This document shows, one piece after another, positions 1 through 47,925 of a stretch of DNA of 47,925 bases. The notes beneath the pieces are model-generated. The model saw only the letters and a program-made list of their open reading frames with translations. It made no database searches and was not told where the DNA came from. The number at the start of each line of letters is the position of its first letter. Positions within the stretch are counted from its first letter, which is position 1. Origin of the DNA: a virus (Duplodnaviria > Heunggongvirae > Uroviricota > Caudoviricetes); IMG/VR virus record IMGVR_UViG_3300045988_143263. One strand, 5' to 3'. The position numbers were made by a program, and so were the translations under genes.

Positions 1-60
1 TAGGAAATTTTTTCCCACCTGTAAAGCACTTTTTATATAAATCTATAATTATATAAGCAC
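1..60 (-). promoter_or_regulatory. 3' half of repeated promoter-leader cassette (partial copy at window start; continues from window end if circular)
   Basis: Near-identical to 38578..38636 and 32196..32253; contains TTTACA -35-like box (reverse strand) and TATATAATTATAGATTTATATAA motif. Confidence 0.5.
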
Positions 61-86
61 AAAAAAGCCCCTTTGCAACAGGGGCT
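61..86 (-). terminator. rho-independent terminator downstream of antitoxin gene
   Basis: Minus-strand hairpin (GCCCCU / AGGGGC stem) followed by a U6 run, ~16 nt past the stop of 102..401. Confidence 0.5.
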
Positions 87-992: not shown

Positions 993-1283
993 CTATTTTT
1001 GTGACTTTACTCCTGGCATATGGACTTCCCAGCGACGAATCCCCATAGCTGCGCAAAAATCAGCCACATAATTCAATCCCGCCCATTCGCGGATACCACC
1101 ACGGGCTTTTTCAATGAAAACGGCAATCCCTTTTTTATTGAGAGCAAAAAGCCGCCAGCTTTTTGTCACTTCGTCCTGGGTAGCCACAACACAAGTGAAA
1201 GCTCCCATGCGATACAGGTCCAAGAACTCTTTGCGTGTTTTGCGTACAAGTTCCATAACAAACCTCATATTTGCATGTTTCAA
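993..1283 (-). CDS. hypothetical protein
   Basis: 96-aa ORF, codirectional with neighbours; no family recognised by eye. Confidence 0.35.
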   Translation of the reverse strand: MKHANMRFVMELVRKTRKEFLDLYRMGAFTCVVATQDEVTKSWRLFALNKKGIAVFIEKARGGIREWAGLNYVADFCAAMGIRRWEVHMPGVKSQK

Positions 1284-1579
1284 ACATCTGTTTTGTTATC
1301 AATGAAGATTAACCCTAACCCAGCGAAGTAACACAGCAGCGCCCAGGCTGCATACGGAATGCTGGATCTGGATGTGGACTCCTTTAACATCTGCCAGTTG
1401 CGAACATTGCGACTATCTTTTAAGCCTAGTTTTTTGGCCAACTGCGAGCCGCTCATTCCGGTCAGGCCAATGACTGCCCGAACTTCTCCACATGTAGGAG
1501 ATTCCCATTCATCCGCTTTTTTTAAACAAGCCGGATTCAACATTTTTAAAACAGTATCTTTATCCATAACCATCTCCAT
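1280..1579 (-). CDS. putative HTH DNA-binding protein (start may be an internal Met near 1567)
   Basis: 99-aa ORF with HTH-like segment GMSGSQLAKKLGLKDSRNVRNW. Confidence 0.35.
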   Translation of the reverse strand: MEMVMDKDTVLKMLNPACLKKADEWESPTCGEVRAVIGLTGMSGSQLAKKLGLKDSRNVRNWQMLKESTSRSSIPYAAWALLCYFAGLGLIFIDNKTDV

Positions 1580-1765
1580 TTATTATATCTACGATGGTAG
1601 GAAATCTTTTCCTATGTGGCAATAGAAATTTACTACATTGCGTATAAGACAAGTTTTCTATGTCTAATAGGAAATGATGTTTCTTACGTTTTATCGCGTT
1701 CTGATGGCTACTGTGTGCGTATTTATCGACGTTTATTGATAAGGCTCGCCCCTTCCTCCTGCAAA

Positions 1766-4875: not shown

Positions 4876-4878
4876 ATT

Positions 4879-5406: not shown

Positions 5407-5411
5407 AAATT

Positions 5412-5430: not shown

Positions 5431-5434
5431 TCTC

Positions 5435-25744: not shown

Positions 25745-26305
25745 TTATTCTTCCTGCTTAATAAATCGGGATTCCTGGAGCGCCTGAAGCGCAAAATTAA
25801 TCTCGTCTTCAATAATGCGTTCGATCTCCCTGGCTGTTTTACCTTCACAACGGGGAGCTGCTCTTGGAGCAATACTAAATAAGCGGCTACGCAATTCATT
25901 AGCTGCCAGAAATGCATCATCCCTGACCGCATCTTTAGCGATGAGAGAGCCTTCCTTTTCTTCAAATTCAAGGCGTTTCAGCTTTGCCTGATAAATTTTT
26001 TCTGCGGTCTTAGCCTTGTTGAATTGCACCGCAACACCGGAAGTACCACCAGCTAATCCGGCATCATCAGCGGGTAACTCTGGTTGTTCCGAAGATATCC
26101 CATGCCCTCTTTTTCCGTTTTCAGCAGATACCTCACGACCAACCTGTCGGCTCGCTTCATAAGCCGCACTTGCTTTATCAAAATCCAGCTTGCCGCTTTT
26201 CAGCACTGGAATGCGACCGGAACGACAGAGCTTCGTAACCATTGCCGGAGAAATACCTTTCCGGCGGGCAAACTCTGACTTACTGACGATGGCCATTACT
26301 TGCAA
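25745..26305 (-). CDS. terminase small subunit (Nu1-like, N-terminal HTH)
   Basis: 186 aa; N-terminus SKSEFARRKGISPAMVTKLCRSGRIPV resembles the Nu1 HTH. Confidence 0.5.
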   Translation of the reverse strand: MQVMAIVSKSEFARRKGISPAMVTKLCRSGRIPVLKSGKLDFDKASAAYEASRQVGREVSAENGKRGHGISSEQPELPADDAGLAGGTSGVAVQFNKAKTAEKIYQAKLKRLEFEEKEGSLIAKDAVRDDAFLAANELRSRLFSIAPRAAPRCEGKTAREIERIIEDEINFALQALQESRFIKQEE

Positions 26306-26886
26306 CCATTAGCAAGATACTGAACAAATCCCTCATGCGTTTCATGCGCGTCGTGGTACTGACGATAAACATCCAGCAACAATGCAATTTCCATATCCGT
26401 CGCGGGAATACGTTCTTTATCAATAGCCAGGTACTTAATTTGAACAACAGGGGAAGAATTATCGTCTTCTTCCTGCGGCTGTTCATCGCTTAACATTTCG
26501 TCAAGCTCTGCATCATTAAACCCAAGCAGATCAATATCAAAATCATCATCCATTAACTCTTTGACTTCTTCGGCCAGAAGCTGCATATCCCAGCCAGCAT
26601 TTAAGGCCAGCTTGTTATCTGCAATCCTGTAAGCCTTCTTCTGTTTTTCAGAAAGGTTACTCAACCGAATCGCCGGAACTTTATCCATTTCCAGAATTTC
26701 GGCTGCTGCAAGCCGACCATGCCCCGCAATCAGTTCATTCTTTTCATCGATCAGCACAGGATTAGTGAAACCGAACTCACGGATACTGTTCACCAACTGT
26801 TCAACTTGCTCATCTGAATGAGTCCGTGAATTTTTGGCATATCTGAGCAGCTTACCGACTGGTAAATATTCGATTTTTAGAGCCAT
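26296..26886 (-). CDS. ParB-like nuclease domain protein
   Basis: 196 aa; ParB N-terminal motif NPVLIDEKNELIAGHGR; paralogue of 29553..30176. Confidence 0.7.
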   Translation of the reverse strand: MALKIEYLPVGKLLRYAKNSRTHSDEQVEQLVNSIREFGFTNPVLIDEKNELIAGHGRLAAAEILEMDKVPAIRLSNLSEKQKKAYRIADNKLALNAGWDMQLLAEEVKELMDDDFDIDLLGFNDAELDEMLSDEQPQEEDDNSSPVVQIKYLAIDKERIPATDMEIALLLDVYRQYHDAHETHEGFVQYLANGCK

Positions 26887-27443
26887 TTTTTAACCGCCAT
26901 AACACAACAGGTTAAAGAAAACTGTTTAACTTATTGATACTAAAAGAGAAAAATGACGATCTTTTTACTCATAAAAAATCACACAAACCAGCATAATTAT
27001 CTGATTTTATTAAGTTTTTATAAGTAAAAAGGATCTTGCGATGGTGTTTTGGTTAAAAGATTGGATGTATTTGCATGATTTATAACGATTTTTATCAGAA
27101 CAACATCACATTGGTTAAAGATCTGCGCGTATCTTGATGATCTAAAAGAAAATTTTCTACTTTCTTTTTACCAGCACAAATACAGCAAAAAATCACGTTT
27201 TCCCGATATTTTTCAATGAGATGAGTAAATTTCTTTTACCGCAACTTTTAACCTAACTTTTTTCACGTTTAGCTAGCCGAACATCGGGGTTCGAATGACC
27301 CGCATCCAACGCTTTTGGCCAGAAGGACCCAATTCTGCCGGACGATGAAACGATGCTCGTGCTCCCCCACAGACAGCCAGCGAGCGACGCTACAGAACAC
27401 AGTGAATACACTCTGCATAACAACACCATCAACCACACGATGA

Positions 27444-28163
27444 TTAACGAGAGAAGGTCTTAGAAAGAATGTCATCAATAGCCTTTGTGACTTCATCAGC
27501 AAACGCATCCTCACCAGCACGCAGCGCCACGCCATGCCAATCAAGACGCTGCGAATAGTTAGGTTGCTGGATAAACGTAAGGATCAACGTAGGACGCCGC
27601 CCAACGCGCTGCCAGACACCTGGTTGAAGCGGGTTACTTGTACCAGGTCGAACAACAAAAAACTCCGTAGGCTTGCCCTGACGGCGATTTTGATGCGCAT
27701 CTCGCTGAACTCTTAGGCCAGATAAGACCTGCTGTAATTGCCCCCGCGAAATATTCCCATATTTGTCCAGCTTTGCGCCGGGACCAGGAGCAAGCTGCCA
27801 GCCGTTAGGCAAATATCCACCAGCCCTTAGCGCCCCTTCTGAGCGTTTGTACTGTCGTTGGCCACCTTCGATTTGCGGGGTCAACGTTACAGGGGCTGGC
27901 GTTCCTCCCCATTCACGAGCATACACAATGGCTGTAGGATCGCTCTTCTTTGCGGCCAAAACGTAAGTAGAGTTCTGAATCCACGGCGTGGGCCTGTCAA
28001 ATACCCGATTAATTTCATTCTTAATCGCAGCCTGAGAAGCCTTTGCCGTTCTGGTTGCCGCAAGCGCCATTGCGAACGGCAATTCGCGTTCTTCAAGGCG
28101 CTGGAGTTGTCGTTGAATATCCTGAGAAGAAAAATCCATCTTTATCTCAATTCTGTCAGCCAC
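27444..28163 (-). CDS. hypothetical protein
   Basis: 239-aa ORF between two ParB-domain genes; Gly/Pro/Gln-rich, no family recognised. Confidence 0.35.
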   Translation of the reverse strand: MADRIEIKMDFSSQDIQRQLQRLEERELPFAMALAATRTAKASQAAIKNEINRVFDRPTPWIQNSTYVLAAKKSDPTAIVYAREWGGTPAPVTLTPQIEGGQRQYKRSEGALRAGGYLPNGWQLAPGPGAKLDKYGNISRGQLQQVLSGLRVQRDAHQNRRQGKPTEFFVVRPGTSNPLQPGVWQRVGRRPTLILTFIQQPNYSQRLDWHGVALRAGEDAFADEVTKAIDDILSKTFSR

Positions 28164-28179
28164 CAGCGCCTCCTACAGA

Positions 28180-29559
28180 CTACTTAATCAACGGCCGGAA
28201 AGCCGCCAGCACATCATCAGATCGTCCGATTGTTGAACCACCAGGCAACGGCAACTCAAACTCAAAACGAACAGCTTTCTCCAGACTCGCCCAACTAAGG
28301 GAATCATCGTTAATGACGTGCAAATACCAGCTCTTACAGTTGAATATTGACCGCTTAATCCTGAAACCATGTACACGGCACAACTGCTTCACTTCATCAT
28401 CAGAGTGAAACTTCTGGTAAAACCAGTGCCCCTTCCGGTACAACGCGGTAAAACCGTTATGATCAATAAAATAAAGCCGGCTTTTGGAACTCGCCGCTTG
28501 TGTTTGCTTCAGGACTGTTTCCAGCTCTCCACGGCTACGACCAGAAAAGAATATTGACCCACCAGCTTTACACAGGCCTTTCAGAACCGTCAGAACGGAC
28601 CATTCAGCCTCGACACTATCGACCGAGTTCAAAACGCTATCGCAAATCACGTAGTCGTAACGCCCTCGCGTTTTTAAGTCGTCCACCAGCGTATCAATCA
28701 TCCGGTTTGTTGCGGTCCTATCCAGAGTGTTTCCAGCGCCCTTACGGCGAAAAAGCTCGAGATCATGCAGGTTATATCCCTTTGCCCTGAGCATTCGCGC
28801 GTAGTCTCCCTGCCCCGAACCAAAATCAATTCCTCTTGGCGTCTTGGCAATGATCGGGAGGATCAACGACTCATACAGATTTGATTTCAGGCTGCCACCA
28901 TTACGCAACCGCATAAGCTGCGCATACGTCTGGATATATGTTGTTTTCTCCAGATGAGAATACTCAAATACACCATAAGTTTTATTCAGATAACTTTGGT
29001 ATTTTTCCTTCTCAACATCAGGGATCACAAACACCGTTAGCGGTGTGCGCGTCATTTTCGCTGCTAATGCATACTGAGCACAGTGAATAACCTCACCAGA
29101 CTGAGTAGCAACACAACCACCCCACGGACCATACTTGATAACCAGTTCCGCTATGTTCTTTCGAACATATGCCATTTTCGCGCGCATATTGCCTGAGATC
29201 TGGCTTGCCGATACCTGAACAAAACCATGCTTATCTTCCAGACCGGACACCCTGCAACGCTCATCTCCGCTATCAAAATCCGTTCCGTTATGCAGTTGGT
29301 TAAACCGTACTTCATCGTATACCGTCGTTTCACAGGGCAACACATACACCGCAGCACGCGTTATTCCCAACTTACGTAGCGCCTTCGTCCTTTGGTGTCC
29401 CGCCACCAGCAAATCGCCGCGCACTATCAATGGCTTCACAAGCCCCAGCTCCCTGACGCTTTCCGCCAGCCTCGCAAGATCATCCTCACCGATAAAACGC
29501 GGGTTATATTCCGCGCCGCGTAGGTGCGTTATGTCGTAATTCAGGTGAAGCATCAGCAC
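28180..29559 (-). CDS. ParB-like N-terminal domain fused to a class I SAM-dependent methyltransferase (putative DNA methyltransferase)
   Basis: 459 aa; N-terminal ParB-like segment (…LIVRGDLLVAGHQR…) and methyltransferase motif I IDFGSGQGDY. Confidence 0.6.
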   Translation of the reverse strand: MLMLHLNYDITHLRGAEYNPRFIGEDDLARLAESVRELGLVKPLIVRGDLLVAGHQRTKALRKLGITRAAVYVLPCETTVYDEVRFNQLHNGTDFDSGDERCRVSGLEDKHGFVQVSASQISGNMRAKMAYVRKNIAELVIKYGPWGGCVATQSGEVIHCAQYALAAKMTRTPLTVFVIPDVEKEKYQSYLNKTYGVFEYSHLEKTTYIQTYAQLMRLRNGGSLKSNLYESLILPIIAKTPRGIDFGSGQGDYARMLRAKGYNLHDLELFRRKGAGNTLDRTATNRMIDTLVDDLKTRGRYDYVICDSVLNSVDSVEAEWSVLTVLKGLCKAGGSIFFSGRSRGELETVLKQTQAASSKSRLYFIDHNGFTALYRKGHWFYQKFHSDDEVKQLCRVHGFRIKRSIFNCKSWYLHVINDDSLSWASLEKAVRFEFELPLPGGSTIGRSDDVLAAFRPLIK

Positions 29560-30176
29560 ACCTCCCCAGCCAGCAATGCGGATACAAATCCGATATAGCT
29601 GCCATTATCATCAACATAACGAGACACCGCGCAGTCAAAACGATCCGCTTCCTCATCCGTTGCCGGGATTTTATGACCTCCAAATGACAGGTACTGAACT
29701 TTTACGCCTGATTTGGCCTCATCCTTCTCAAATGGGATATCCATACCCTCTGTGTCATCGTAGACCGCCGCACTCAATAAGTTATCCAGTTCGCGCTGAG
29801 TAAAACCAATTGAGTCCAGAGCAAAATCATCGGCCGCAAGATCTGCAAGCTCCGCGCTTAACAACTCTTCATCCCAACCAGCATTCAGCGGAATACGGTT
29901 GTCGGCCAGACGATATGCCTTCTTCTGATTCTCCGTTAGCCCTTCCAGAACAATGCAGGGAACGTCATCCATCCCCAACTGAGTGGCCGCAGCAATTCGA
30001 CCATGACCAGCAATTACAACGTTGTTCTCGTCTATCAGGATCGGATTAGTCCATCCGTACTCCTGTATGCTGGCAACAATCTGATCTACCTGCTCCACGG
30101 AGTGTGTGCGAGCGTTCTTTTCATAACCAATCAACACAGAAAGTGGTAAAGAAACCACATTAAGATGTTTTGTCAT
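29553..30176 (-). CDS. ParB-like nuclease domain protein
   Basis: 207 aa; NPILIDENNVVIAGHGR motif; paralogue of 26296..26886. Confidence 0.7.
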   Translation of the reverse strand: MTKHLNVVSLPLSVLIGYEKNARTHSVEQVDQIVASIQEYGWTNPILIDENNVVIAGHGRIAAATQLGMDDVPCIVLEGLTENQKKAYRLADNRIPLNAGWDEELLSAELADLAADDFALDSIGFTQRELDNLLSAAVYDDTEGMDIPFEKDEAKSGVKVQYLSFGGHKIPATDEEADRFDCAVSRYVDDNGSYIGFVSALLAGEVC

Positions 30177-31602: not shown

Positions 31603-31676
31603 CCCATGTTCTCCTTTGTCTGGATGTAAAAAAGCCCCGGCAATTGCCGAGGCTCGTTGTTCGTTATCGTTACGGT

Positions 31677-31877
31677 TTAATGCTCGCGTCGTCCGGCGAC
31701 AACTTCGGATTTGTATTTCAGGTCGCCCAGCAAGAATTGCAGTTTAAGCATCTTTGCCGCTGTGTAGTTCCCTGATTCCACAACCTCTTTCATGAGGTCA
31801 TAAACGGTCGCTACATCATCAGCCAGGAACTCTTTGCGTTGCTGCTCAGTCGCACGTTTGAAGGAAATACGCATCAC
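31677..31877 (-). CDS. hypothetical protein
   Basis: 66-aa ORF overlapping the upstream gene by 4 nt. Confidence 0.3.
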   Translation of the reverse strand: MMRISFKRATEQQRKEFLADDVATVYDLMKEVVESGNYTAAKMLKLQFLLGDLKYKSEVVAGRREH

Positions 31878-32143
31878 TCATCATCTCCTGCCGCACATAC
31901 AACCTCACAAAAAACATCAGCGGAATGTTTCTCCTTGAACGAATGACGCTCAAAACCGCACTCAATATCAGGCGCAAAAACATCCACCACATACGGTCTT
32001 TCAGAATGTTTGTTTTCCCAACGATAAACCGTAGTGACGTTGAAATGTTTTAACGCTTCACGGAACTCAACGCTGCCCGTCAGGTTTTTTGAGGTCAGGT
32101 ATTGCAGGAGGTTTTTTACTACTTCACGGTCTTGTACTTTCAT
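31874..32143 (-). CDS. hypothetical protein (first gene downstream of a repeated promoter-leader cassette)
   Basis: 89-aa ORF; ATG at 32141..32143 directly follows the conserved leader …ccggagataacccg. Confidence 0.4.
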   Translation of the reverse strand: MKVQDREVVKNLLQYLTSKNLTGSVEFREALKHFNVTTVYRWENKHSERPYVVDVFAPDIECGFERHSFKEKHSADVFCEVVCAAGDDE

Positions 32144-32255
32144 CGGGTTATCTCCGGTTTAACCAGGGCGGGTATCGCTCGGTTTCGGGTATAACCATAG
32201 GAAATTTTTTCCCATCCGTAAAGCACTTTTTATATAAATCTATAATTATATAATT
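32144..32255 (-). promoter_or_regulatory. repeated promoter-leader cassette, copy A
   Basis: Near-identical to 38527..38645 and to window end plus start; minus strand reads TATATAATTATAGATTTATATAAAAAGTGC-TTTACG-17 nt-TATGGT-leader with GGAGA RBS. Confidence 0.5.
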
Positions 32256-32843
32256 CTATGACACTTGCCAGAGAGCATCATGCAACTGGATACCTCCGTT
32301 GCACTGGTTGCCCCAGCCATGCCAGCCATCAGGTAAATCACCGCGAGCAAACAGCTCAATACGAGGAACATCGCCTAACAGCTTTACCAGCTTGTCACGG
32401 ACCACATCAGGCTTCCGAGAATGCTCCAGACGAGGCGATGTAAACGACTGAATGATCCCCGCATCAAGACGTGTCGGTAGTTTGCCTTTCACTGCAAACA
32501 AGCAATCTTCACTGTTTGCACGAGTCATATGCCCCATCCCCATCACCAGCTTATCTGGTTGTCGGCTACCACATTTGTTCCATGTGAAGCCCTTCATGGT
32601 CATCAGCCTGAATCCCCATGCTTTCACCACCAGCAACGCTTCTTCTGGCTGAGTCGGAACCCACCACATGGCCAACAAACACGATTCAGGATTAGCAAGC
32701 TGCCAGACAGGAATACGAGCAATATCCTCAGCTTTCATCGTTGGATACTTAAAACCAGCGCCACGATTCCCATCCTTACACTTGTCTTTGTATTCCCAGG
32801 GGGGATCTGCATAAATCAGATTAAACAATGCAATTGCCTCCAT
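32256..32843 (-). CDS. MT-A70 family N6-adenine DNA methyltransferase
   Basis: 195 aa; catalytic DPPW motif (LIYADPPWEY). Confidence 0.75.
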   Translation of the reverse strand: MEAIALFNLIYADPPWEYKDKCKDGNRGAGFKYPTMKAEDIARIPVWQLANPESCLLAMWWVPTQPEEALLVVKAWGFRLMTMKGFTWNKCGSRQPDKLVMGMGHMTRANSEDCLFAVKGKLPTRLDAGIIQSFTSPRLEHSRKPDVVRDKLVKLLGDVPRIELFARGDLPDGWHGWGNQCNGGIQLHDALWQVS

Positions 32844-33151
32844 GTTAGTTGTGTCTCCGGCGCTTATCTCCGGCAGTCATAACGCTGGCCAGCTCTACAG
32901 CAAACACAACGAAAAGGGCACTAACCAGACTGATTAATGCCCTTGCCTGTTGTGTGCCGGATATCGCCCGACAACGCTGTTTTGGTAACACGGCTACAGT
33001 TCCGTGCCGCTCCAGCTTTTACCCCTTTGCGGATAACAGGCCCTGCCTGTAACTTAGCCCCACGTTCGCCCGAAATGCGCACCAGGCACGCATAAAGATG
33101 AGCACGAAGGAAGTAACTCCACCGCGCTTATCTTTATGTGTGAGAGTGAAT

Positions 33152-33227
33152 TGGTGGCCCCTACCGGATTTGAACCGATGACCGTGCGATTATGAGTCGC
33201 CTGCTCTAACCACTGAGCTAAGGGGCC
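33152..33227 (-). tRNA. tRNA with CAU anticodon (tRNA-Ile2/Met-like)
   Basis: 76 nt; cloverleaf with acceptor GGCCCCU/AGGGGCC, GCUC/GAGC D-stem, anticodon loop CUCAUAA, GGUUCAAAUCC T-arm and 3' CCA; 5' half resembles E. coli ileX from memory. Confidence 0.8.
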
Positions 33228-33396
33228 ATATTTGATCTGTTTGTCTGGTGTGGCGCCGCGCACGAAAATCCCAGCCAATAAATTCAGGATTTTTGGGCGC
33301 GGCGGCATATCAGACAAACATGGTTGATGCGTGCGCTAATGAGAAAAGCGCATAGAATGTTGTAACTATATATTTATATAATTATAGAAATATATA

Positions 33397-33606
33397 TTAC
33401 TTTGGACAGTTGATTTCCCATGCCCTGTTATGAGCCAGAATATCTTTCTTTGTCTGGCGGTCCATAACATCGATATCGTGATCAGTCAGGTAGATGGGCT
33501 TTACCCAATCACAGGCGGTATCAACCACCACCGGGACGCTTCCACGACTCCCGCAGCTCGCGATCAACATCGTCATCAGCCATATGGTTAACACTCTGCT
33601 GTACAT
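33397..33606 (-). CDS. Rz1-like outer-membrane lipoprotein spanin (o-spanin)
   Basis: 69 aa; signal peptide with lipobox LIASC; overlaps the 3' end of the Rz-like gene in another frame. Confidence 0.55.
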   Translation of the reverse strand: MYSRVLTIWLMTMLIASCGSRGSVPVVVDTACDWVKPIYLTDHDIDVMDRQTKKDILAHNRAWEINCPK

Positions 33607-35015: not shown

Positions 35016-35047
35016 TAAAAAAAAGCCCCGCCGAAAAAGGCAGGGCT
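35016..35047 (-). terminator. rho-independent terminator immediately upstream of the lysis cassette (tR'-like)
   Basis: Minus-strand hairpin AGCCCUGCC-UUUUUC-GGCGGGGCU followed by U8. Confidence 0.55.
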
Positions 35048-35553
35048 TCATAAAGCAACAAATTACGCGGTAATCGCTTAACGCAGTTTTACTACGTTAA
35101 ATGAAACACTACACCCAGTTACCACCTAAAACAAGGTTTTCCCATAAAAAAACCTTCATATCGTGGTTAATCGATCAATAAAAAAGCAATGTTCAACTTT
35201 TTACCAACCGAACATCCCGACCAGGACTTCCATAATATTCGCCGATATGCCACTGCTTAAGTTGAGTAATCTTCTCCAACTTAACTCCCATAGAGTCCAG
35301 TTTCTGCCATGTTTTCGGTTGTATGTGCTTCATTACCCGCTCTGAATATCTGAATACTGCTCGTAAGCGCATGGTTTCTCACTACAGCTTATATAAGTGG
35401 TTTTTCCAGCGGTTTTGCGCCGCGCTGCGCTTATCTTTGATTCCCTCTCTGGCAATTCCAGAATATAAGTACAACACCACACGGCGATTGCTAACTCTCA
35501 ACCACTGGCTGGGATAGCAACGTCTGTATACACGGGAAATAAGCATCTTTGCT

Positions 35554-37381: not shown

Positions 37382-37420
37382 TGTCGAGGCGTCCTTATAC
37401 ATTTATATAAATATATAATT

Positions 37421-37440
37421 CTATATACGGCGGGAGACGT
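37421..37440. terminator. GC-rich hairpin downstream of 37459..38526 (possible terminator/attenuator)
   Basis: cggcggga-gacg-tcccgccg, 8-bp perfect stem; no clean U-tract. Confidence 0.3.
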
Positions 37441-37458: not shown

Positions 37459-38526
37459 TCAGGCTTTCAATAGCGATTCTTTTAAATATCGGGCATCAGC
37501 CAGGGCGTTTGGAGTAATCTTGCGAACCCATGCATTACGGGTTGGACTCCACTTAAAGGCGCGTGATTTAAGCAGCGAACGAATGTTTGCCTCTGGTTTG
37601 CCAGGGAAATAAAACAGGATGCGGTTATCCTCTGGATCTATCTCCATAGAAAAGCCGTCGTATTCTTCGCGCTGTGCTCCTGTTACAGACTTGACCGATT
37701 CAAGCTCCTTAATACGGCTCTGTAGTCGTTTGATTTCGGCGTTATTGTTGCTCAGTGCGTATGAAGGGAATCCGATGCGCCCACAGAAATCTCCGGCCAG
37801 TAACTCTTTGGCTTCGCTTTCTGTAAACCTGAGATCGATTAATGCAGAAAGCTGCTGTATTTGGTCTTTTTTGTATTTGCGAATGGCCTTATTTGCGGCC
37901 TTCATTTTGACGTGTGACTTCATGCAGCCTTGCAGCTTACGAAGCAACTTAAATAGCGCATCAGGATCATCAGACGAAATTCCATTACGCCCAACACCTG
38001 CGGCTTTGCTCTCGTAGTGTGATGCTTTACTTTCGCATTCAACAAACGCTTTTCTGAATAACGCATCAGCTTTAGACAAACGGCGGCGATGGCCTTTCGC
38101 GCTATAATGGTCAACTAAAATCGGCTGGCCTAACGGGATCACATCCAACAGGTCATGCGCTCGCTTATGCGCTACCGCACCTTCTTTTCTGGCTTTTTCT
38201 GCACGAGCAATATATCGGGCAAGACGCGCGTTCTGGCGTTCCTGATAGGTGTTTACGTAATCATCTCCGCGCTGCTGCTGTTCAAGCCATGCTTTGCGCA
38301 GATCTTCTGTTACGTCCACCAGCTCCGCAGGGATACAACCTGTTTGGGCTTCATAAGAGTAACCATCCTCATAGATGCGCCCATCGTCTTCAACAAAGAA
38401 AAAGGTTTCGTGCTCATCGCTTTTGACCATACGACCATTAACATGGCGTAATAGGTAGCCAGTATCAGTGCTCAACAGGCTGTTAGGGTTGTTGATCCAG
38501 TCAGAAATAATTACTTGTTTATTCAT
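37459..38526 (-). CDS. DUF3560-like phage protein (start trimmed to MNKQVIISD)
   Basis: ~355 aa; ATG at 38524..38526 directly follows the conserved leader of the repeated cassette, which the ORF-track N-terminal extension would read through. Confidence 0.45.
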   Translation of the reverse strand: MNKQVIISDWINNPNSLLSTDTGYLLRHVNGRMVKSDEHETFFFVEDDGRIYEDGYSYEAQTGCIPAELVDVTEDLRKAWLEQQQRGDDYVNTYQERQNARLARYIARAEKARKEGAVAHKRAHDLLDVIPLGQPILVDHYSAKGHRRRLSKADALFRKAFVECESKASHYESKAAGVGRNGISSDDPDALFKLLRKLQGCMKSHVKMKAANKAIRKYKKDQIQQLSALIDLRFTESEAKELLAGDFCGRIGFPSYALSNNNAEIKRLQSRIKELESVKSVTGAQREEYDGFSMEIDPEDNRILFYFPGKPEANIRSLLKSRAFKWSPTRNAWVRKITPNALADARYLKESLLKA

Positions 38527-38647
38527 CAGATTTCTCCGGTTTAACCAGGGCGGGTATCGCTCGGTTTCGGGTATAACCTTAGGAAATTTTTTCCCACCTG
38601 TAAAGCACTTTTTATATAAATCTATAATTATATATTTATAGATTTTC
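38527..38647 (-). promoter_or_regulatory. repeated promoter-leader cassette, copy B (immediately downstream of Q-like gene)
   Basis: -35 TTTACA (rc of 38599..38604), 17-nt spacer, -10 TAAGGT (rc of 38576..38581), AT-rich upstream motif, ~45-nt leader with GGAGA RBS. Confidence 0.5.
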
Positions 38648-40556: not shown

Positions 40557-41047
40557 TCCTCAAGCCTCCCAAGTGCTGAACGCCGGGCGTTGCTAATCTC
40601 CTTATGAATCAGCTCGATATCGCTGGAATCTTTATTCTTAAACTCCAGCATGGCAATCGCATCACGAACCTCTGAAACGGTTACGTGTGAGTGTTTCCAG
40701 CGAGCAATGAATCGCGGACCGCGTAGATTGCAACGCTCCGCAGGCATCCCCAGCTCAGAGAAAACCGCTTTCAACCTTGATAAGCAGTTAACAGGGAGAT
40801 TCCCTTTGATCTTGTTCTGCCGAACCGATGTGCCATCGCTACGCTGGCGCTGACGTTCGGCAAAATCTGCCGCCCATTGCTGGACGTTAATCCGGCCTTC
40901 CGAATACGCTACCAGCAGCGTCAGGTTATCCGCACGAGGGAATCTCTCGAAGCGATACCAGGCACCAATCAGTGATGACGTAAAGCCAAACTTTCTGGCA
41001 ACACCAATTTGGCCTCCATTTTCGTCAACCCACTCCTGAAAGGTCAT
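40553..41047 (-). CDS. Cro/CII-like early regulatory protein
   Basis: 164 aa; N-terminal HTH-like segment ENGGQIGVARKFGFTSSLIGAWYRF; divergent from the CI-like repressor gene. Confidence 0.45.
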   Translation of the reverse strand: MTFQEWVDENGGQIGVARKFGFTSSLIGAWYRFERFPRADNLTLLVAYSEGRINVQQWAADFAERQRQRSDGTSVRQNKIKGNLPVNCLSRLKAVFSELGMPAERCNLRGPRFIARWKHSHVTVSEVRDAIAMLEFKNKDSSDIELIHKEISNARRSALGRLEE

Positions 41048-41065
41048 TTAACGAACTCCAGTTAA

Positions 41066-41183
41066 ACCACGATATGTGGTATTAAAACCACATATCGTGA
41101 GTTTTTCAATGGGCGAAACAAAAAATAACCTTCTATTTGTGGTCCACCTCTCGTCTTACCATGTGAAAACCACTAAATGTGGT
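41066..41183. promoter_or_regulatory. immunity operator/promoter region with ACCAC-N5-GTGGT sites
   Basis: ACCACGATATGTGGT (41066..41080), ACCACATATCGTGAG (41087..41101), ACCACTAAATGTGGT (41169..41183); TATAAAT -10-like box at 41188..41194. Confidence 0.5.
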
Positions 41184-41220
41184 AATGTATAAATAACCCA
41201 CCATTCACGATTGATGAGAC

Positions 41221-42360: not shown

Positions 42361-42475
42361 GCCCGCTTATATGATTATAGATTTATATAATTATATAAAA
42401 CGCTTTCCATCCGCCAAAAAGTTGGTTATGCTTACCTCGTTCTATAAATATAGATTTATAGAATTATATAACCAA
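42361..42475. repeat. AT-rich iteron cluster upstream of parA (candidate centromere/operator)
   Basis: ATGATTATAGATTTATATAATTATATAA and ATAAATATAGATTTATAGAATTATATAA blocks. Confidence 0.5.
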
Positions 42476-42494
42476 ACACATGGAGTCTCGACAA

Positions 42495-43148
42495 ATGACT
42501 ATCTCTGTAGGTATTTTCAACGGAAAAGGCGGCGTAACCAAATCAACAATTGCCCGTGCTTTAGCAGTTGCTTATGCAAAGGCTGGCTGGAATGTATGCC
42601 TGATCGATATGGATGTGCTTAACGGAACGGTAACACGTTGGGTACAACGCAGAATGGCCAACAATATCGAACCAGCAATCGCGGCGCAGCCGTGCGGCAC
42701 ACCATCACAAGTCCAGAAAATCATCGAATCAGAAGTATACGACCTGGTTATCGTCGATGGCGGTGCCTACGCATCTGAATCAGTACCGAAGCTCTCTGAA
42801 TTTCTGGATATGGTTATTTTGCCAACCAGATTCTCTACCGATGACCTGGAAACCACCGTTAACACAGCTCACGGCATCGTTAAAAAGGGTGTACCAATCA
42901 AGAAAATTTGCATGGTGTTTTCCGGCGCGGCTGAAAACGAAGCTGACTATATTGAAGCCCAAGAGTACCTGGCTAATACGCCATACTTTGTTGTCGATAA
43001 GTACATTCCCCACAAGCCAGCTCTGAGCAAAGCTCAGGATAAGGGCTTAAGCCTCATTGAGTGCTCATACGTTGCGCCACGCAAAAAGGCAGACGACGTT
43101 ATTCAGGGGATTATCAACCAGCTTGAGGCTCTGACTACTGCCGCGTAA
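42495..43148 (+). CDS. parA: ParA-family partition ATPase
   Basis: Deviant Walker A box NGKGGVTKST ten residues from the chosen start; start set at the second ATG (GGAG RBS). Confidence 0.8.
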   Translation: MTISVGIFNGKGGVTKSTIARALAVAYAKAGWNVCLIDMDVLNGTVTRWVQRRMANNIEPAIAAQPCGTPSQVQKIIESEVYDLVIVDGGAYASESVPKLSEFLDMVILPTRFSTDDLETTVNTAHGIVKKGVPIKKICMVFSGAAENEADYIEAQEYLANTPYFVVDKYIPHKPALSKAQDKGLSLIECSYVAPRKKADDVIQGIINQLEALTTAA

Positions 43149-43180
43149 TATATAATTATAGTTTTATAGATTTATATAAG
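43147..43180. repeat. AT-rich iteron block between parA and the ParG-like gene
   Basis: ATATATAATTATAGTTTTATAGATTTATATAA. Confidence 0.45.
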
Positions 43181-43191
43181 AGGGGATACAC

Positions 43192-43440
43192 ATGGCCGCA
43201 CCATCAAAACCACCAAAGAAGAACAGCAAAGGCGTACCGCCATCGATCGAACAACCGCAGGTTTTCGACCCGACTGAAACGCCAACCAGAACCAAATCAG
43301 GTGGGGCACAAATGGCGTTTAACGTCGACCCTGAATTTAAACGCGAGTACAAAACGTTCGCCAGCTCAATGGATATGTCATTGAAAGAAGTGCTGACAAA
43401 GTCTTTTGAGTTACTCAAGGCTCAATACAACCAGAAGTAA
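43192..43440 (+). CDS. ParG-like ribbon-helix-helix centromere-binding protein
   Basis: 82 aa; disordered basic N-terminus and C-terminal RHH-like segment MAFNVDPEFKREYKTFASSMDMSLKEVL; directly downstream of parA. Confidence 0.5.
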   Translation: MAAPSKPPKKNSKGVPPSIEQPQVFDPTETPTRTKSGGAQMAFNVDPEFKREYKTFASSMDMSLKEVLTKSFELLKAQYNQK

Positions 43441-43662: not shown

Positions 43663-43686
43663 AAAAAAAGGCCCCCGAAGGGGCCT
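43663..43686 (-). terminator. rho-independent terminator (minus strand; hairpin shared with plus-strand gene end)
   Basis: ggcccc-cgaa-ggggcc 7-bp stem; A7 run on plus strand gives a U7 tail on the minus strand. Confidence 0.5.
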
Positions 43687-43691
43687 AATCG

Positions 43692-43814
43692 CTACTTGCT
43701 GCTAATGTTTATCGTCACATTCAGAGCGTTATCAGTAATCTTCCAACCCTCCCCATGTGGCGTAAACAAAGCTCCAGTAACAACGATAAAAATACACATG
43801 TAGTATTTTTTCAT
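43692..43814 (-). CDS. small hydrophobic peptide (signal-peptide or membrane-like)
   Basis: 41 aa MKKYYMCIFIVVTGALFTPHGEGWKITDNALNVTINISSK; followed by a terminator; ~170-nt structured upstream leader. Confidence 0.3.
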   Translation of the reverse strand: MKKYYMCIFIVVTGALFTPHGEGWKITDNALNVTINISSK

Positions 43815-47493: not shown

Positions 47494-47874
47494 TTACTTA
47501 ACGAGGAATAAAAATGGTTTATTGTTCGGCGGTGTAATCGGGGCTGGCTCGCTTTTGCTCATGCGATCAGTGTACCAGGCCAACTCCTTGTCAAAGTAAG
47601 CCTGATTAAAATAGGCCATGAATGTAGTTTCAAATCCATAACGACCGCTAATACGCAGCATCTGATTGCCGTTCTCTGTTTCCAGATATACCTGGGCACG
47701 TTCCTGATTCTCCTTCAGCCAGGTTAAAGCCTCATCGCATGAGGACACACGATACTCATCATCGTAGCAGTCATCGATGCGGCTTGAGGAAGAACGGCAA
47801 ATCACGCCAACAGAACCAGCCAGGATAGTTTGAATTTTAAGGAAAGCGTTTTTGCGGATTTTAATCATGCTCAT
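47494..47874 (-). CDS. hypothetical protein (first gene downstream of a repeated promoter-leader cassette)
   Basis: 126-aa ORF; ATG at 47872..47874 directly follows the conserved leader …ccggagataacccg. Confidence 0.4.
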   Translation of the reverse strand: MSMIKIRKNAFLKIQTILAGSVGVICRSSSSRIDDCYDDEYRVSSCDEALTWLKENQERAQVYLETENGNQMLRISGRYGFETTFMAYFNQAYFDKELAWYTDRMSKSEPAPITPPNNKPFLFLVK

Positions 47875-47925
47875 CGGGTTATCTCCGGTTTAACCAGGGC
47901 GGGTATCGCTCGGTTTCGGGTATAA
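47875..47925 (-). promoter_or_regulatory. 5' half of repeated promoter-leader cassette (partial copy at window end)
   Basis: Identical to 32144..32194 and near-identical to 38527..38578; continues into window positions 1..60 if the replicon is circular. Confidence 0.5.

What the first reader, a model, noticed from the sequence alone, without database searches (positions are those of the whole stretch)
32144..32255. A ~110-bp promoter-leader cassette repeated at least three times (32144..32255, 38527..38647, 47875..47925 continuing at 1..60)
Three near-identical copies sit immediately 5' of minus-strand start codons (31874..32143, 37459..38526, 47494..47874). Each copy reads on the minus strand as AT-rich block TATATAATTATAGATTTATATAAAAAGTGC, a -35-like TTTAC(A/G), a 17-nt spacer, a -10-like TA(A/T)GGT, then a second -10-like TATACC and a ~45-nt leader with internal direct repeats (GGTTTAACC…GGGTATC / GGTTTC-GGGTATAACC) ending in a GGAGA RBS. 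A second -10-like element just downstream of the real -10 is how sigma70-dependent promoter-proximal pauses are built at lambdoid late promoters, and one copy lies directly downstream of the Q-like gene. These could therefore be Q-modified or otherwise co-regulated promoters driving several accessory operons. Multi-copy identical promoter cassettes in a ~48-kb phage are unusual.
Basis: partly seen in the sequence, partly recalled or inferred. Interest (0 to 1): 0.75.

Follow-up and report, generated by a model that had tools for sequence, protein, structure and literature searches.

The report
Plasmid-style KorC-repressed promoter cassettes
The three near-identical 110-bp blocks are real promoters with a shared leader. 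They are not lambda-Q late promoters but copies of the repressor-controlled "kil-kor" promoter module of broad-host-range plasmids, here switching three operons of a 48-kb E. coli phage-plasmid on and off together.

Summary
Three copies lie on the minus strand, at 32141-32260, 38524-38642 and 47872-47925 joined to 1-55. Their 44-nt leader and 35-nt AT block are identical.

The Q interpretation is not supported. The "Q-like" gene is an MT-A70 methyltransferase, no Q family was found in 40 proteins tested, and the "second -10" is not conserved in relatives.

Each cassette has four parts:
1. An array of 8-bp repeats (TATA[G/T]AWW). The same arrays flank the parA promoter and precede the small parG-like gene. 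In a Serratia relative, all eight sites switch together to TAAA[G/T]A.
2. A sigma-70 promoter, TTTACA-17-TA(A/T)GGT (TTGCAG-17-TAATAT in Serratia).
3. A 17-bp palindrome, T(A/G)GGAAA-N3-TTTCCTA, in the spacer and overlapping the -10. A fourth, perfect copy sits in the promoter of orf99 (1280-1579). Orf99 is 52% identical to the IncP-1 repressor KorC.
4. A leader with a bulged hairpin followed by AAACCGGAG. The hairpin covaries across Alpha-, Beta- and Gammaproteobacterial plasmids.

The IncP-1 klcA and kleA promoters, and copies in an IncU/IncX3 plasmid that match RA3 orf02p and klcAp by start codons and operator, have the same design and a homologous leader.

Verdict: a new variant of the known KorC regulon, found in a phage-plasmid, with partition-protein arrays where IncP-1 has KorA and KorB operators. 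The function of the hairpin is unknown.

The parts
32229..32260 (-). Copy 1: array of four 8-bp units (CATAGAAT TATATAAT TATAGATT TATATAAA). The first unit overlaps the MT-A70 stop codon.
32217..32222 (-). Copy 1: -35 hexamer TTTACG
   Evidence: aligned with TTGCAG and TTGATG of Serratia and TTGACA of IncP-1
32198..32214 (.). Copy 1: 17-bp KorC-type operator TGGGAAAAAATTTCCTA, in the spacer and overlapping the -10
32194..32199 (-). Copy 1: -10 hexamer TATGGT, 17 nt after the -35
   Evidence: TAATAT at the same position in Serratia and IncP-1
32161..32184 (-). Copy 1: leader hairpin AACCG-A-GCG[AUACC]CGC-CC-UGGUU
32141..32160 (-). Copy 1: AAACC, GGAG (32152-32155), 8 nt, then ATG (32141-32143) of the 89-aa gene
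38611..38642 (-). Copy 2: octamer array (TCTATAAA TATATAAT TATAGATT TATATAAA)
38576..38604 (-). Copy 2: core promoter. TTTACA (38599-38604), operator 38580-38596, TAAGGT (38576-38581).
38524..38566 (-). Copy 2: leader hairpin (38543-38566), GGAG (38534-38537), ATG (38524-38526) of the DUF3560 gene
1..55 (-). Copy 3, upstream half: three octamers (32-55), TTTACA (20-25), operator (1-17). Continues at 47925.
47872..47925 (-). Copy 3, downstream half: leader hairpin (47892-47915), GGAG (47883-47886), ATG (47872-47874) of the 126-aa gene. 3 nt are missing at the junction relative to the other copies.
61..86 (-). Intrinsic terminator of the RelE/HTH toxin-antitoxin operon, immediately upstream of copy 3. 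It insulates the cassette.
   Evidence: AGCCCCT-GTTGCAA-AGGGGCT then T6
1280..1579 (-). orf99, a KorC homologue (HTH) and the proposed repressor of the cassettes
1594..1622 (-). orf99 promoter: TTGCCA, 17 nt, TACCAT, with the perfect operator TAGGAAAAGATTTCCTA as read on the minus strand (1598-1614). It has no octamer array and no leader hairpin.
   Evidence: same arrangement in Salmonella and Serratia
42367..42479 (+). parA promoter (TTTCCA, 17 nt, TATGCT) flanked by two octamer arrays (42367-42398 and 42440-42479)
42480..43148 (+). ParA-type Walker ATPase. The likely true start is 42495.
43148..43187 (+). Octamer array immediately upstream of the parG-like gene
43192..43440 (+). 82-aa ParG-like protein with a disordered basic N-terminus, a short strand and two helices. 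Proposed binder of the octamer arrays.
   Evidence: fold inferred; no PDB match
37387..37426 (-). Octamer array without a KorC operator, upstream of the 100-aa winged-helix/MarR-like gene
33358..33405 (.). Octamer array without a KorC operator, between the lysis genes and tRNA-Met
32256..32843 (-).
31632..31655 (-). Intrinsic terminator after the two small genes (89 and 66 aa) driven by copy 1

Best explanation
Each cassette is a KorC-type repressible promoter with a conserved 5' leader. It is homologous in design to the klcA, kleA and kleC promoters of IncP-1 plasmids and to orf02p and klcAp of IncU plasmid RA3.

Proposed mechanism:
- A sigma-70 promoter (-35, 17-nt spacer, -10) carries a 17-bp palindrome (TAGG-N9-CCTA class) in the spacer, overlapping the -10.
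- A dimer of the plasmid-encoded KorC homologue Orf99 binds there and blocks RNA polymerase. Orf99 also represses its own promoter through a fourth operator.
- Directly upstream of the -35, an array of three or four 8-bp repeats is bound by the small ParG-like partner of ParA. The same arrays form the par promoter/centromere region. The partition protein therefore probably co-represses the cassettes, taking the place that KorA and KorB operators hold in IncP-1.
- The transcript begins a few nucleotides before a bulged hairpin, followed by AAACC-GGAG and the start codon. This probably gives a stable, efficiently translated mRNA.

Net behaviour: three operons (89+66 aa; DUF3560 and following genes; 126 aa + HTH) are silent in the established plasmid-prophage. 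They fire together whenever the repressors are absent, for example just after the DNA enters a naive cell.

Shown here: the sequence anatomy, homology of Orf99 to KorC, homology of the cassette to IncP-1 and IncU-type promoters, co-variation of the octamer core between the par locus and the cassettes, and covariation in the hairpin.

Inferred: actual binding and repression, the role of ParG, the timing of expression and the hairpin's function.
For: Promoter:
- Alignment of 11 copies from E. coli, Salmonella and Serratia keeps the -35, the 17-nt spacing and the -10. Serratia has TTGCAG-17-TAATAT.

Operator:
- T(A/G)GGAAA-N3-TTTCCTA occurs in all three cassettes, and as a perfect copy at 1598-1614 in the orf99 promoter.
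- Salmonella and Serratia each have four TAGGA-N7-TCCTA sites (three cassettes plus the orf99-homologue promoter), against 0.5-0.9 expected.

Orf99 is a KorC homologue:
- Its best hits outside the family are annotated korC genes of IncP-1 plasmids (52% identity, 1e-14).
- pAKD34 KorC matches the window with E 2.6e-18.
- The motif IPYAAWALLCxxAGLGxI is shared.
- Orf99 is one of the few regulators shared by all three cassette-bearing lineages.

Same design in plasmids:
- pAKD34 klcAp and kleAp read OB, OA, TTGACA, GC[TAGGGCAATTTGCCCTA]ATAT, a GGCC...GGUC hairpin, then AAAACCGGAGAA-N-CGATG.
- The same layout appears in Xylella, Klebsiella pKP13d, Chromobacterium, Zavarzinia and a Pseudomonadaceae MAG.

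Literature:
- KorC regulates the klcA, kleA and kleC promoters in RP4, and the predicted KorC site in pOXA-48 lies between the -35 and -10 (10.1101/2025.01.23.634512).
- RA3 orf02p and klcAp are strong promoters repressed by KorC (PMC7414963).
- klcA is induced about 224-fold in new transconjugants (PMC7314908).

Octamer arrays:
- Seven arrays of 3 or more units, against 0 in 200 shuffles.
- Eight TATA[GT]A clusters in the window and eight in Salmonella, with none in Serratia. Serratia instead has eight TAAA[GT]A clusters; the window has none and Salmonella one stray cluster unrelated to these sites. Six of Serratia's eight lie at the equivalent places: three cassettes, the par promoter twice, and upstream of parG.
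- A conjugative plasmid with a ParA/ParG-like pair but no orf124 also has TATA arrays at its par locus and at a cassette remnant.
- TP228 parH is likewise an array of tetramer boxes with AT-rich spacers bound by the RHH protein ParG (PMC3130281).

Hairpin:
- Every lineage's leader folds into a hairpin ending 4-6 nt before GGAG.
- 110 of 110 cells are paired, 5 of 9 pairs change on both sides, and the covariation score is 0.49 against 0.21 in shuffles, 0 of 500 reaching it.
Against: - There is no experimental datum for this phage-plasmid: no mapped start sites and no binding data.
- The E. coli -10 (TAAGGT/TATGGT) is weak, and the tool's consensus scan did not call these promoters.
- In E. coli, the left arm of the operator in the three cassettes has one mismatch (TGGGA).
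- The RHH fold of the 82-aa protein is not demonstrated. The AF2 model has mean pLDDT 66 with only two helices, and there is no PDB match by sequence or fold.
- The octamer arrays could be bound by another par-linked protein.
- The hairpin alignment was made by hand to fit the structure, so its statistics lean towards it. Single-sequence folding z-scores are unremarkable (-0.7 to -1.5).
- No KorA or KorB homologues or operators are present, so this is not a full kil-kor regulon.
- It is unclear how, or whether, repression is lifted during lytic growth. It is also unclear whether copy 1 contributes to late-gene transcription past the terminator at 31632-31655.
Confidence: 0.78

Rival explanations
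1. Lambda-type Q-modified late promoters. A Q protein would load at the promoter on a sigma-70-dependent paused complex created by a second -10-like element, and the modified polymerase would read through terminators.
For: - The palindrome lies between the -35 and -10, where lambda's Q-binding element lies.
- TATACC follows the -10 in the E. coli copies.
- An intrinsic terminator follows the first two genes of copy 1.
Against: - The supposed Q gene is MT-A70.
- No Q or antiterminator family was found in 40 proteins or in three annotated relatives.
- TATACC sits in the discriminator, upstream of the expected +1, and is not conserved.
- The palindrome matches the KorC operator class, and a KorC homologue is encoded with its own copy of the operator.
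Confidence: 0.03
2. Activator-dependent middle or late promoters. The palindrome or the upstream arrays would bind a phage-encoded activator that turns on three operons during lytic growth, as Mu Mor/C, P2 Ogr or P1 Lpa do.
For: - The -10 is weak in E. coli (TAAGGT).
- Protein sites lie directly upstream of the -35, a classical class I/II activator position.
- Copy 1 lies at the head of the packaging and structural gene region.
Against: - The Serratia and IncP-1 versions have near-consensus hexamers with 17-nt spacing and need no activator.
- A site overlapping the -10 is a repressor position.
- KorC is an experimentally established repressor at homologous promoters (PMC7414963; 10.1101/2025.01.23.634512).
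- ParG and omega-type RHH proteins are known as repressors.
Confidence: 0.08
3. The AT-rich block is not a specific protein site. It would be an UP element or curved, H-NS-prone DNA, and only the KorC operator would regulate.
For: - An A-tract (AAAAAG) sits at about -44 to -39, resembling a proximal UP subsite.
- AT-rich DNA is generally bound by H-NS.
Against: - The strict 8-bp periodicity and reuse of the same units at the par promoter and upstream of parG.
- 7 arrays against 0 in shuffles.
- The concerted TATA to TAAA switch in Serratia: all eight of its clusters are the TAAA type and none the TATA type, six of them at sites equivalent to the window's.
Confidence: 0.07
4. The leader hairpin is a nut- or put-like RNA antitermination signal. 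It would modify RNA polymerase so that the three transcripts read through downstream terminators.
For: - The hairpin is conserved and covarying in the leader of all copies.
- Terminators lie downstream of copy 1, at 31632-31655, and within the copy 2 operon region, at 35022-35049.
Against: - No N-like arginine-rich protein is evident.
- The same hairpin precedes single short genes (klcA, kleA, orf02) in conjugative plasmids.
- Loop sequences vary freely (AUACC, AUAGU, UUCU, UGU, ACCC), unlike boxB.
- There is no boxA-like element.
Confidence: 0.06
5. A small mobile or repetitive element (MITE, REP or similar) that happens to carry promoter-like sequence.
For: Three near-identical copies in one 48-kb genome.
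Against: - No terminal inverted repeats or target duplications.
- Each copy is in register with a start codon.
- In 5,426 complete E. coli genomes it occurs in 74 genomes, with 214 places on plasmids and 3 on chromosomes, and a median of 3 per genome.
- Within a genome all copies share lineage-specific substitutions, which fits concerted evolution of a functional module.
Confidence: 0.02

Closest known systems
KorC-regulated promoters of IncP-1 plasmids (RK2/RP4 klcAp, kleAp, kleCp; seen here in pAKD34)
   Same: - -35, 17 nt, -10, with a 17-bp TAGG-N9-CCTA palindrome overlapping the -10.
- A KorC-family repressor on the same replicon.
- Several near-identical copies per replicon.
- Further repressor sites just upstream of the -35.
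- A homologous leader: a short single-stranded 5' end, a bulged hairpin, then A(A)AACCGGAGA and the ATG.
   Different: - The operator inner bases differ (GGAAA against GGGCA).
- There are no KorA or KorB proteins or OA/OB operators. Arrays of 8-bp repeats shared with a type Ib-like par locus take their place.
- The genes driven are unrelated to kle and klc.
- The host replicon is a myovirus-type phage-plasmid, not a conjugative plasmid.
- The korC homologue has its own autoregulated promoter.
KorC regulon of IncU plasmid RA3 (orf02p, klcAp and others)
   Same: KorC acts as a global repressor coordinating several backbone modules. Two tandem cassettes in pKP13d have the same promoter, operator, hairpin and SD design (PMC7414963).
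   Different: RA3 KorC also controls replication and transfer promoters. RA3 partition uses IncC and KorB (a ParB-type HTH protein), not a small ParG-like protein.
Omega of pSM19035 and ParG of TP228 (RHH centromere-binding proteins that double as transcriptional repressors)
   Same: A small protein encoded next to a Walker ParA. Its binding sites are arrays of short repeats with a fixed 7-8-bp period, at the par promoter and at other promoters. This links partition to gene control (PMC3130281 for parH; the omega comparison is from my own knowledge).
   Different: - No detectable sequence similarity.
- The unit sequence is different.
- Eight dispersed arrays, three of them fused to KorC-type promoters.
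- Binding has not been shown.
Dispersed repressor or centromere sites in other phage-plasmids (P1 C1 operators; N15 SopB sites near phage promoters)
   Same: One plasmid-prophage protein acts at many scattered sites to keep several operons silent (from my own knowledge).
   Different: The proteins and site architectures are different. Here there are two site types, a palindrome and an array, at the same promoter.
Lambda PR' with Q
   Same: Only the position of a protein site between the -35 and -10, and a terminator downstream of copy 1.
   Different: No Q gene, no conserved pause-inducing element, and a different protein family.

Membership tests
KorC (kil-kor) regulated promoter | 17-bp palindromic operator of the TAGG-N9-CCTA class, between the -35 and -10 and overlapping the -10 | tested here: met
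   Present at 32198-32214, 38580-38596 and 1-17 with 1 mismatch each. Perfect copies in Salmonella and Serratia. Same position as TAGGGCAATTTGCCCTA in pAKD34 klcAp and kleAp.
KorC (kil-kor) regulated promoter | A KorC-family repressor encoded on the same replicon | tested here: met
   orf99 (1280-1579) is 52% identical to IncP-1 KorC, E 2.6e-18. The C-terminal motif is shared.
KorC (kil-kor) regulated promoter | Autoregulation: an operator in the repressor's own promoter | tested here: met
   A perfect palindrome at 1598-1614 lies inside TTGCCA-17-TACCAT upstream of orf99. This is conserved in Salmonella and Serratia. It is sequence evidence only.
KorC (kil-kor) regulated promoter | Repression of the promoter by KorC in vivo or in vitro | not testable with these tools
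   Needs reporter fusions or EMSA. It has been shown for the homologous RA3 and RP4 promoters (PMC7414963; 10.1101/2025.01.23.634512).
KorC (kil-kor) regulated promoter | Co-regulation by KorA and/or KorB through OA and OB operators, as in IncP-1 | tested here: not met
   tblastn with pAKD34 KorA found no homologue in the window; KorB itself was not searched. PGAP annotation of the near-identical plasmid L001 lists no KorA or KorB. The cassette sequences carry octamer arrays, not OA or OB, where pAKD34 has both (sequences confirmed in PMC2680271).
KorC (kil-kor) regulated promoter | Shared leader: a bulged hairpin followed by A(A)AACCGGAG and the start codon | tested here: met
   homologous to the pAKD34, Xylella and pKP13d leaders.
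Lambda-type Q antitermination promoter | A Q-family antiterminator gene | tested here: not met
   The candidate is MT-A70. No Q family in 40 proteins. None annotated in relatives.
Lambda-type Q antitermination promoter | A conserved -10-like pause element in the initially transcribed region | tested here: not met
   TATACC abuts the -10, so it lies upstream of the expected +1, and it is not conserved in Salmonella or Serratia.
ParG/omega-type RHH centromere-operator arrays | Arrays of short repeats with a fixed period at the par operon promoter | tested here: met
   8-bp units at 42367-42398, 42440-42479 and 43148-43187. 7 arrays against 0 in shuffles.
ParG/omega-type RHH centromere-operator arrays | A small ribbon-helix-helix protein encoded after a Walker-type ParA | tested here: inconclusive
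   ParA is confirmed. The 82-aa protein has a disordered N-terminus, an FNV strand-like segment and two helices. There is no Pfam, NCBIfam, PDB or Foldseek match.
ParG/omega-type RHH centromere-operator arrays | The same protein recognises the sites at par and at the other promoters | tested here: met
   Indirect evidence: Serratia has eight TAAA[GT]A clusters and no TATA[GT]A clusters, the reverse of the window, and six of them lie at sites equivalent to the window's. Residues on the presumed strand also change: QMAFNV to AMNFNV. Binding itself is untested.
MITE/REP-type repeat | Terminal inverted repeats or target duplications, with dispersal in unrelated chromosomal contexts | tested here: not met
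   214 of 217 places are on plasmids of one family, always in register with a start codon.
Known RNA family (Rfam) | A match to a curated covariance model | tested here: not met
   No hit at gathering score. Only chance-level hits at E up to 10.

The most novel reading that the evidence does not exclude
A temperate myovirus-type phage-plasmid has taken over a conjugative-plasmid 'kil-kor' circuit. A KorC repressor and the partition protein's centromere-like arrays jointly silence three operons, and eight ParG arrays are dispersed over the genome. Segregation machinery and global gene silencing would therefore be physically coupled, and the operons would fire as a burst on entry into a naive cell.

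In addition, the covarying 5'-UTR hairpin with ACCGGAG is shared by IncP-1 plasmids, an IncU/IncX3 plasmid, Xylella and Chromobacterium replicons and this phage-plasmid. It would be an undescribed cis-regulatory RNA element, absent from Rfam, with a specific function such as binding a factor or controlling mRNA stability or translation of establishment genes.
Probability: 0.35. Interest if true: 0.65.

Novelty: new variant of a known kind. Interest (0 to 1): 0.5.

Why it matters
- It replaces a wrong mechanistic label (Q antitermination) with a testable one. A KorC-family repressor, and probably the ParG-like partition protein, control three operons of a phage-plasmid found in about 1.4% of complete E. 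coli genomes, including the reference strain ATCC 25922.
- It shows that regulatory hardware thought of as typical of broad-host-range conjugative plasmids also runs part of a phage genome. This bears on how phage-plasmids merge the two lifestyles.
- It suggests that the genes behind the cassettes (DUF3560 and several unknowns) are entry or establishment functions.
- It exposes a deeply conserved leader hairpin in KorC regulons whose function has apparently never been addressed.

Tried and rejected
- **C4 antisense RNA.** Rfam found a P1-like C4 RNA at 45080-45168. I tested whether it targets the shared leader. Its loops are complementary to TTGGAACC and ACACAATG in its own operon, not to the leader. 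Rejected.
- **Single-sequence folding of the leader.** It gave only weak z-scores. Structure became convincing only through comparison across lineages.
- **First IMG/VR scan.** The direct repeat ATACCCG-N10-ATACCCG returned mostly chance hits, and all true relatives were at least 96% identical. That repeat is in fact not conserved.
- **Second pattern (operator plus ACCGGAG).** This one was productive.
- **cI-like repressor as the palindrome or array binder.** I considered the 218-aa protein with HTH and S24 domains. Its operators are ACCAC-N6-GTGGT. Rejected.
- **Other HTH candidates for the palindrome.** The HTH gene downstream of copy 3 and the 179-aa HTH are both absent from Serratia, which keeps the operators. 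Rejected.
- **orf124 as the array binder.** The conjugative plasmid L124 has the arrays but no orf124. Rejected.
- **Family name.** pSLy3 turned out to be an SSU5-type group of about 100 kb, not this family. No paper on the Yersinia phages vB_YpM_39/41/44 was found.
- **Original RK2 papers.** Thomas 1988 and Kornacki 1990/1993 are not held, so the RK2 operator was checked on the pAKD34 sequence instead.
- **ParG-like protein.** PDB sequence search, an AF2 model and Foldseek gave no statistical support for an RHH fold.
Full report
**What the window is.**
- The window is a circularly permuted genome of a ~48-kb E. coli phage-plasmid.
- It is 97-98% identical, over most of a 10-kb sample, to Yersinia phages vB_YpM_39/41/44.
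- The cassette is present at 95-99% identity in about 60 non-mobilizable ~48-kb plasmids of E. coli, E. fergusonii and E. albertii, including the plasmid of ATCC 25922 (NZ_CP009073.1).
- That annotation shows a P2/Mu-like tail and HK97-type head module, RepA, a RelE/HTH toxin-antitoxin pair, ParA, a cI-like HTH-S24 repressor and an ORF6N/Rha antirepressor.

**The observation.**
- All three copies are real and lie on the minus strand, each ending at a start codon.
- The 44-nt leader and the 35-nt AT block with TTTAC are each found exactly three times with no mismatch; none is expected by chance.
- Copy 3 runs across the window ends.
- At that junction, 3 nt present in every other copy are missing, and no fetched relative has that junction. 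I treat it as a possible artefact of how the window was cut.
- In 5,426 complete E. coli genomes the cassette occurs in 74 genomes. 214 places are on plasmids and 3 on chromosomes, with a median of three per genome. It is therefore not a REP- or MITE-like element.

**The Q interpretation fails.**
- The gene immediately upstream of copy 1 (32256-32843) is an MT-A70 methyltransferase (Pfam 4e-23; so annotated in relatives).
- Forty window proteins scanned against Pfam, NCBIfam or PHROGs gave no antiterminator family.
- The "second -10" TATACC directly abuts the -10 hexamer, so it lies upstream of the expected start site.
- It is replaced by AGTAAC in Salmonella and by ATCTCT or GTTTTC in Serratia.

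**The AT-rich block.**
- It is an array of 8-bp units, TATA[G/T]A[A/T][A/T], with three or four units per cassette, ending 6 nt before the -35.
- The same arrays flank the parA promoter (42367-42398 upstream of TTTCCA-17-TATGCT, and 42440-42479 downstream).
- They also sit immediately upstream of the small gene after parA (43148-43187), and occur at 37387-37426 and 33358-33405.
- Arrays of three or more units occur 7 times, against 0 in 200 dinucleotide shuffles.
- The decisive comparison is a Serratia marcescens relative (CP083756.1). It has three cassettes of its own, 83-94% identical to each other.
- The window and the Salmonella relative each have eight clusters of TATA[GT]A. The window has no TAAA[GT]A cluster; Salmonella has one stray cluster unrelated to these sites.
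- Serratia has none of the first kind and eight of the second. Six lie at the equivalent places: three cassettes, the par promoter twice, and upstream of parG. The other two lie elsewhere.
- One protein must therefore read all these sites, and its specificity changed once.
- The cI-like repressor is excluded, because its operators are ACCAC-N6-GTGGT.
- orf124 is excluded, because a conjugative plasmid (NZ_CP037908.1) has TATA-type arrays at its own ParA/small-protein locus, and at a cassette remnant cut by IS26, but has no orf124.
- The best candidate is the 82-aa protein (43192-43440). It has a basic disordered N-terminus, a short FNV segment and two helices. This is the layout of ParG-type ribbon-helix-helix centromere-binding proteins.
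- Its presumed DNA-reading strand differs between E. coli and Serratia: QMAFNV against AMNFNV.
- The fold assignment remains an inference. There was no match in Pfam, NCBIfam, PDB or Foldseek.
- TP228 parH, bound by ParG, is likewise an array of tetramer boxes separated by AT-rich spacers (PMC3130281).

**The core promoter.**
- The alignment of 11 copies from E. coli, Salmonella and Serratia keeps a -35 (TTTACA, TTGCAG or TTGATG), a 17-nt spacer and a -10 (TAAGGT, TATGGT, TAGTGT or TAATAT).
- The consensus scanner missed the E. coli copies only because their -10 matches 3-4 of 6 positions.

**The operator and its protein.**
- The spacer contains an inverted repeat that runs into the -10:
  - TGGGAAA-AAA-TTTCCTA in E. 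coli;
  - TAGGAAA-ATA-TTTCCTA in Salmonella;
  - TAGGACT-AAA-AGTCCTA in one Serratia copy.
- Each genome has exactly one further, perfect copy. In the window it is at 1598-1614.
- That copy lies inside a promoter of the same build (TTGCCA-17-TACCAT), upstream of orf99 (1280-1579).
- Orf99 is an HTH protein (related to the AcrIF24/Aca HTH).
- Its best matches outside the family are genes annotated korC on IncP-1 plasmids (52% identity, 1e-14).
- pAKD34 KorC hits the window with E 2.6e-18, and the motif IPYAAWALLCxxAGLGxI is shared.
- Of the HTH regulators checked, only Orf99 and the cI-like repressor are shared by the E. coli, Salmonella and Serratia lineages. The 179-aa HTH and the HTH gene downstream of copy 3 are absent from Serratia.

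**Homology with known plasmid promoters.**
- A pattern scan asking only for TAGGA-N7-TCCTA followed 30-45 nt later by AAACCGGAG found the same design in:
  - Zavarzinia (Alphaproteobacteria);
  - Chromobacterium (Betaproteobacteria), with two divergent copies;
  - an IncP-1-like Pseudomonadaceae MAG.
- In the IncP-1 plasmid pAKD34, the klcA and kleA promoters read OB (TTTAGCCGCTAAA; present at klcAp only), OA (GTTTAGCTAAAA), TTGACA, GC[TAGGGCAATTTGCCCTA]ATAT, about 10 nt, GGCC-G-GGCA-UGU-UGCU-CA-GGUC, then AAAACCGGAGAA-N5-6-ATG. The OA and OB sequences are confirmed in PMC2680271.
- The same design precedes a klcA-like gene in Xylella pXF879-41.
- It also precedes two genes in Klebsiella pKP13d. 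Their start codons and operator match the RA3 orf02 and klcA primers in PMC7414963.
- According to the literature:
  - KorC regulates klcAp, kleAp and kleCp in RP4, and the predicted KorC site in pOXA-48 lies between the -35 and -10 (10.1101/2025.01.23.634512);
  - RA3 orf02p and klcAp are strong promoters repressed by KorC, which is RA3's main global regulator (PMC7414963);
  - klcA is among the most tightly repressed RP4 genes and is induced about 224-fold in fresh transconjugants (PMC7314908).
- The window's cassette is therefore a member of this promoter class.
- The window has no kle, klc or korA homologues. Only the repressor and its promoter-leader module are shared.

**The leader.**
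- Every lineage's leader folds, as its minimum-free-energy structure, into a bulged hairpin that ends 4-6 nt before GGAG, although the stem sequences differ:
  - AACCG/UGGUU with GCG/CGC in E. coli;
  - GGCC/GGCC with GGC/GCC in Serratia;
  - CGGC/GCCG with GGGC/GCCC in Zavarzinia;
  - GGCC/GGUC with GCC/GGC or AGC/GCU in Chromobacterium;
  - GGCC/GGUC with GGCA/UGCU in IncP-1;
  - GACCG/CGGUC with GGC/GCC in pKP13d.
- On a hand-made structural alignment of 14 distinct sequences:
  - all 110 cells form standard pairs, against 83% in shuffles;
  - 5 of 9 pairs show changes on both sides;
  - the covariation score is 0.49 against 0.21, reached by 0 of 500 shuffles;
  - sliding the partners destroys pairing.
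- Because I fitted the alignment to the structure, these numbers lean towards it. The independent MFE predictions are what reassure.
- Loop sequences vary freely.
- The hairpin is absent from the autoregulated orf99 promoter and from a KorC-operator promoter in a Neisseria plasmid. It is therefore not needed for repression and belongs to the expression of the cargo genes.
- With a start 6-8 nt after the -10, only 3-6 unpaired nucleotides would precede the hairpin. This is the geometry of 5'-terminal stem-loops that protect E. coli mRNAs from 5'-end-dependent decay (my own knowledge).
- That, plus keeping the SD unpaired, is my preferred but unproven function.
- Rfam has no such family.

**Concerted evolution.** Within each genome the copies share lineage-specific substitutions. 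For example, all three Salmonella copies read ...GTAGTAACCAG...GATAGTCGCC, and all E. coli copies read ...GTTATACCCG...GATACCCGCC. This indicates gene conversion or strong common constraint.

**What the cassettes drive.**
- Copy 1 drives two small unknown genes (89 and 66 aa), followed by a strong intrinsic terminator (31632-31655). Further unknown genes, ParB/Srx-domain genes and the packaging genes lie beyond it.
- Copy 2 drives a DUF3560 protein with a primase-like C-terminal region, a MarR-like 100-aa gene and several unknown genes.
- Copy 3 drives a 126-aa unknown gene and an RstR-like HTH gene.
- Copy 3 is insulated from the upstream toxin-antitoxin operon by a terminator (61-86).
- By analogy with klcA and kle, these are probably entry or establishment genes. 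They would be silent in the lysogen and fire when Orf99 and the ParG-like protein are absent.
- Whether copy 1 also feeds late transcription is open.

**Verdict.**
- The Q mechanism is rejected.
- The cassettes are KorC-type repressible promoter-leader modules, a known kind. The variant here is new: it sits in a phage-plasmid, with dispersed partition-protein arrays in place of KorA and KorB operators.

Noticed in passing
window 44983-45168 (+), with 45222-45413 and 45410-46552: A P1 immI-like module. It contains isrK (70 bits) and C4 antisense RNA (78 bits), followed by a 63-aa icd-like ORF and an ORF6N/Rha antirepressor. The C4 target boxes (TTGGAACC, ACACAATG) are repeated before and after C4. 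A cI-type operator-like palindrome, CCACACTATGTGG (44910-44922), sits in the promoter region.
   Followed up: partly
window 43664-43962 (-): A full-length match to ryfA RNA (137 bits, E 6e-35), right after the par operon. It is possibly a type I toxin-antitoxin-like stability element of the plasmid.
   Followed up: no
window 41047-41221: The divergent promoter region between the early operon and the cI-like HTH-S24 repressor carries several ACCAC-N5-6-GTGGT palindromes. These are presumably the primary immunity operators, and they are distinct from both cassette site types.
   Followed up: partly
window 33358-33405 and 37387-37426: Two octamer arrays are not attached to a KorC-type promoter. 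One follows a GC hairpin upstream of a MarR-like 100-aa gene; the other lies between the lysis genes and tRNA-Met. Equivalent arrays exist in Salmonella. Their role, whether extra centromere sites or roadblocks, is unknown.
   Followed up: partly
window 47925/1 junction: Read as a circle, copy 3 lacks 3 nt between TTTCCTA and TTATACCC. This would turn its -10 into TATTAT. No fetched relative has this junction, so it may be an artefact of linearisation or assembly.
   Followed up: partly
window 33152-33227 (-): A tRNA-Met (CAT) gene sits between the lysis cassette and the MT-A70 gene, followed by a terminator at 32914-32944.
   Followed up: no
window 26296-30176 (-): Three ParB/Srx N-terminal-domain proteins lie ahead of the terminase. 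One (28180-29559) is fused to a methyltransferase domain. With MT-A70, that makes two DNA-methylase-like genes in this region.
   Followed up: no
window 3370-5974: A serine recombinase (Hin/Cin-like) lies next to oppositely oriented tail-fibre assembly genes. This is probably an invertible host-range segment.
   Followed up: no
window 7499-7891 and 13249-13533: Diverged tandem-like repeats lie inside large ORFs in the tail-gene region: 93-nt units spaced 132-168 nt apart within ORF 5971-8466, and 45-nt units with a 120-nt period within ORF 12798-15590. From ORF sizes and the L001 gene order these are probably the tail-fibre and tape-measure genes, but I did not map them directly.
   Followed up: no
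L139 (NZ_CP024829.1, 32 kb) and NZ_CP172156.1 (39 kb): These are deletion derivatives of the phage-plasmid. They keep KorC and only one or two cassettes, and have lost the par, early and lysis region. They are natural variants that might show what the circuit is needed for.
   Followed up: partly
L124 (NZ_CP037908.1) 4001-4048: A 28-kb conjugative cfr plasmid carries the same AT block and -35 as the cassette, cut off by IS26, next to the same RelE/HTH pair and a ParA/ParG-like pair. The cassette and the maintenance module therefore circulate between ordinary plasmids and the phage-plasmid.
   Followed up: partly
L137 (Neisseria gonorrhoeae conjugative plasmid) 17129-17145: A KorC-type palindrome, TAGGATAATTTATCCTA, lies in a TTGACA-17-TATAAT promoter preceded by a KorB operator but without the leader hairpin. 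This shows that the operator and the leader are separable modules.
   Followed up: no
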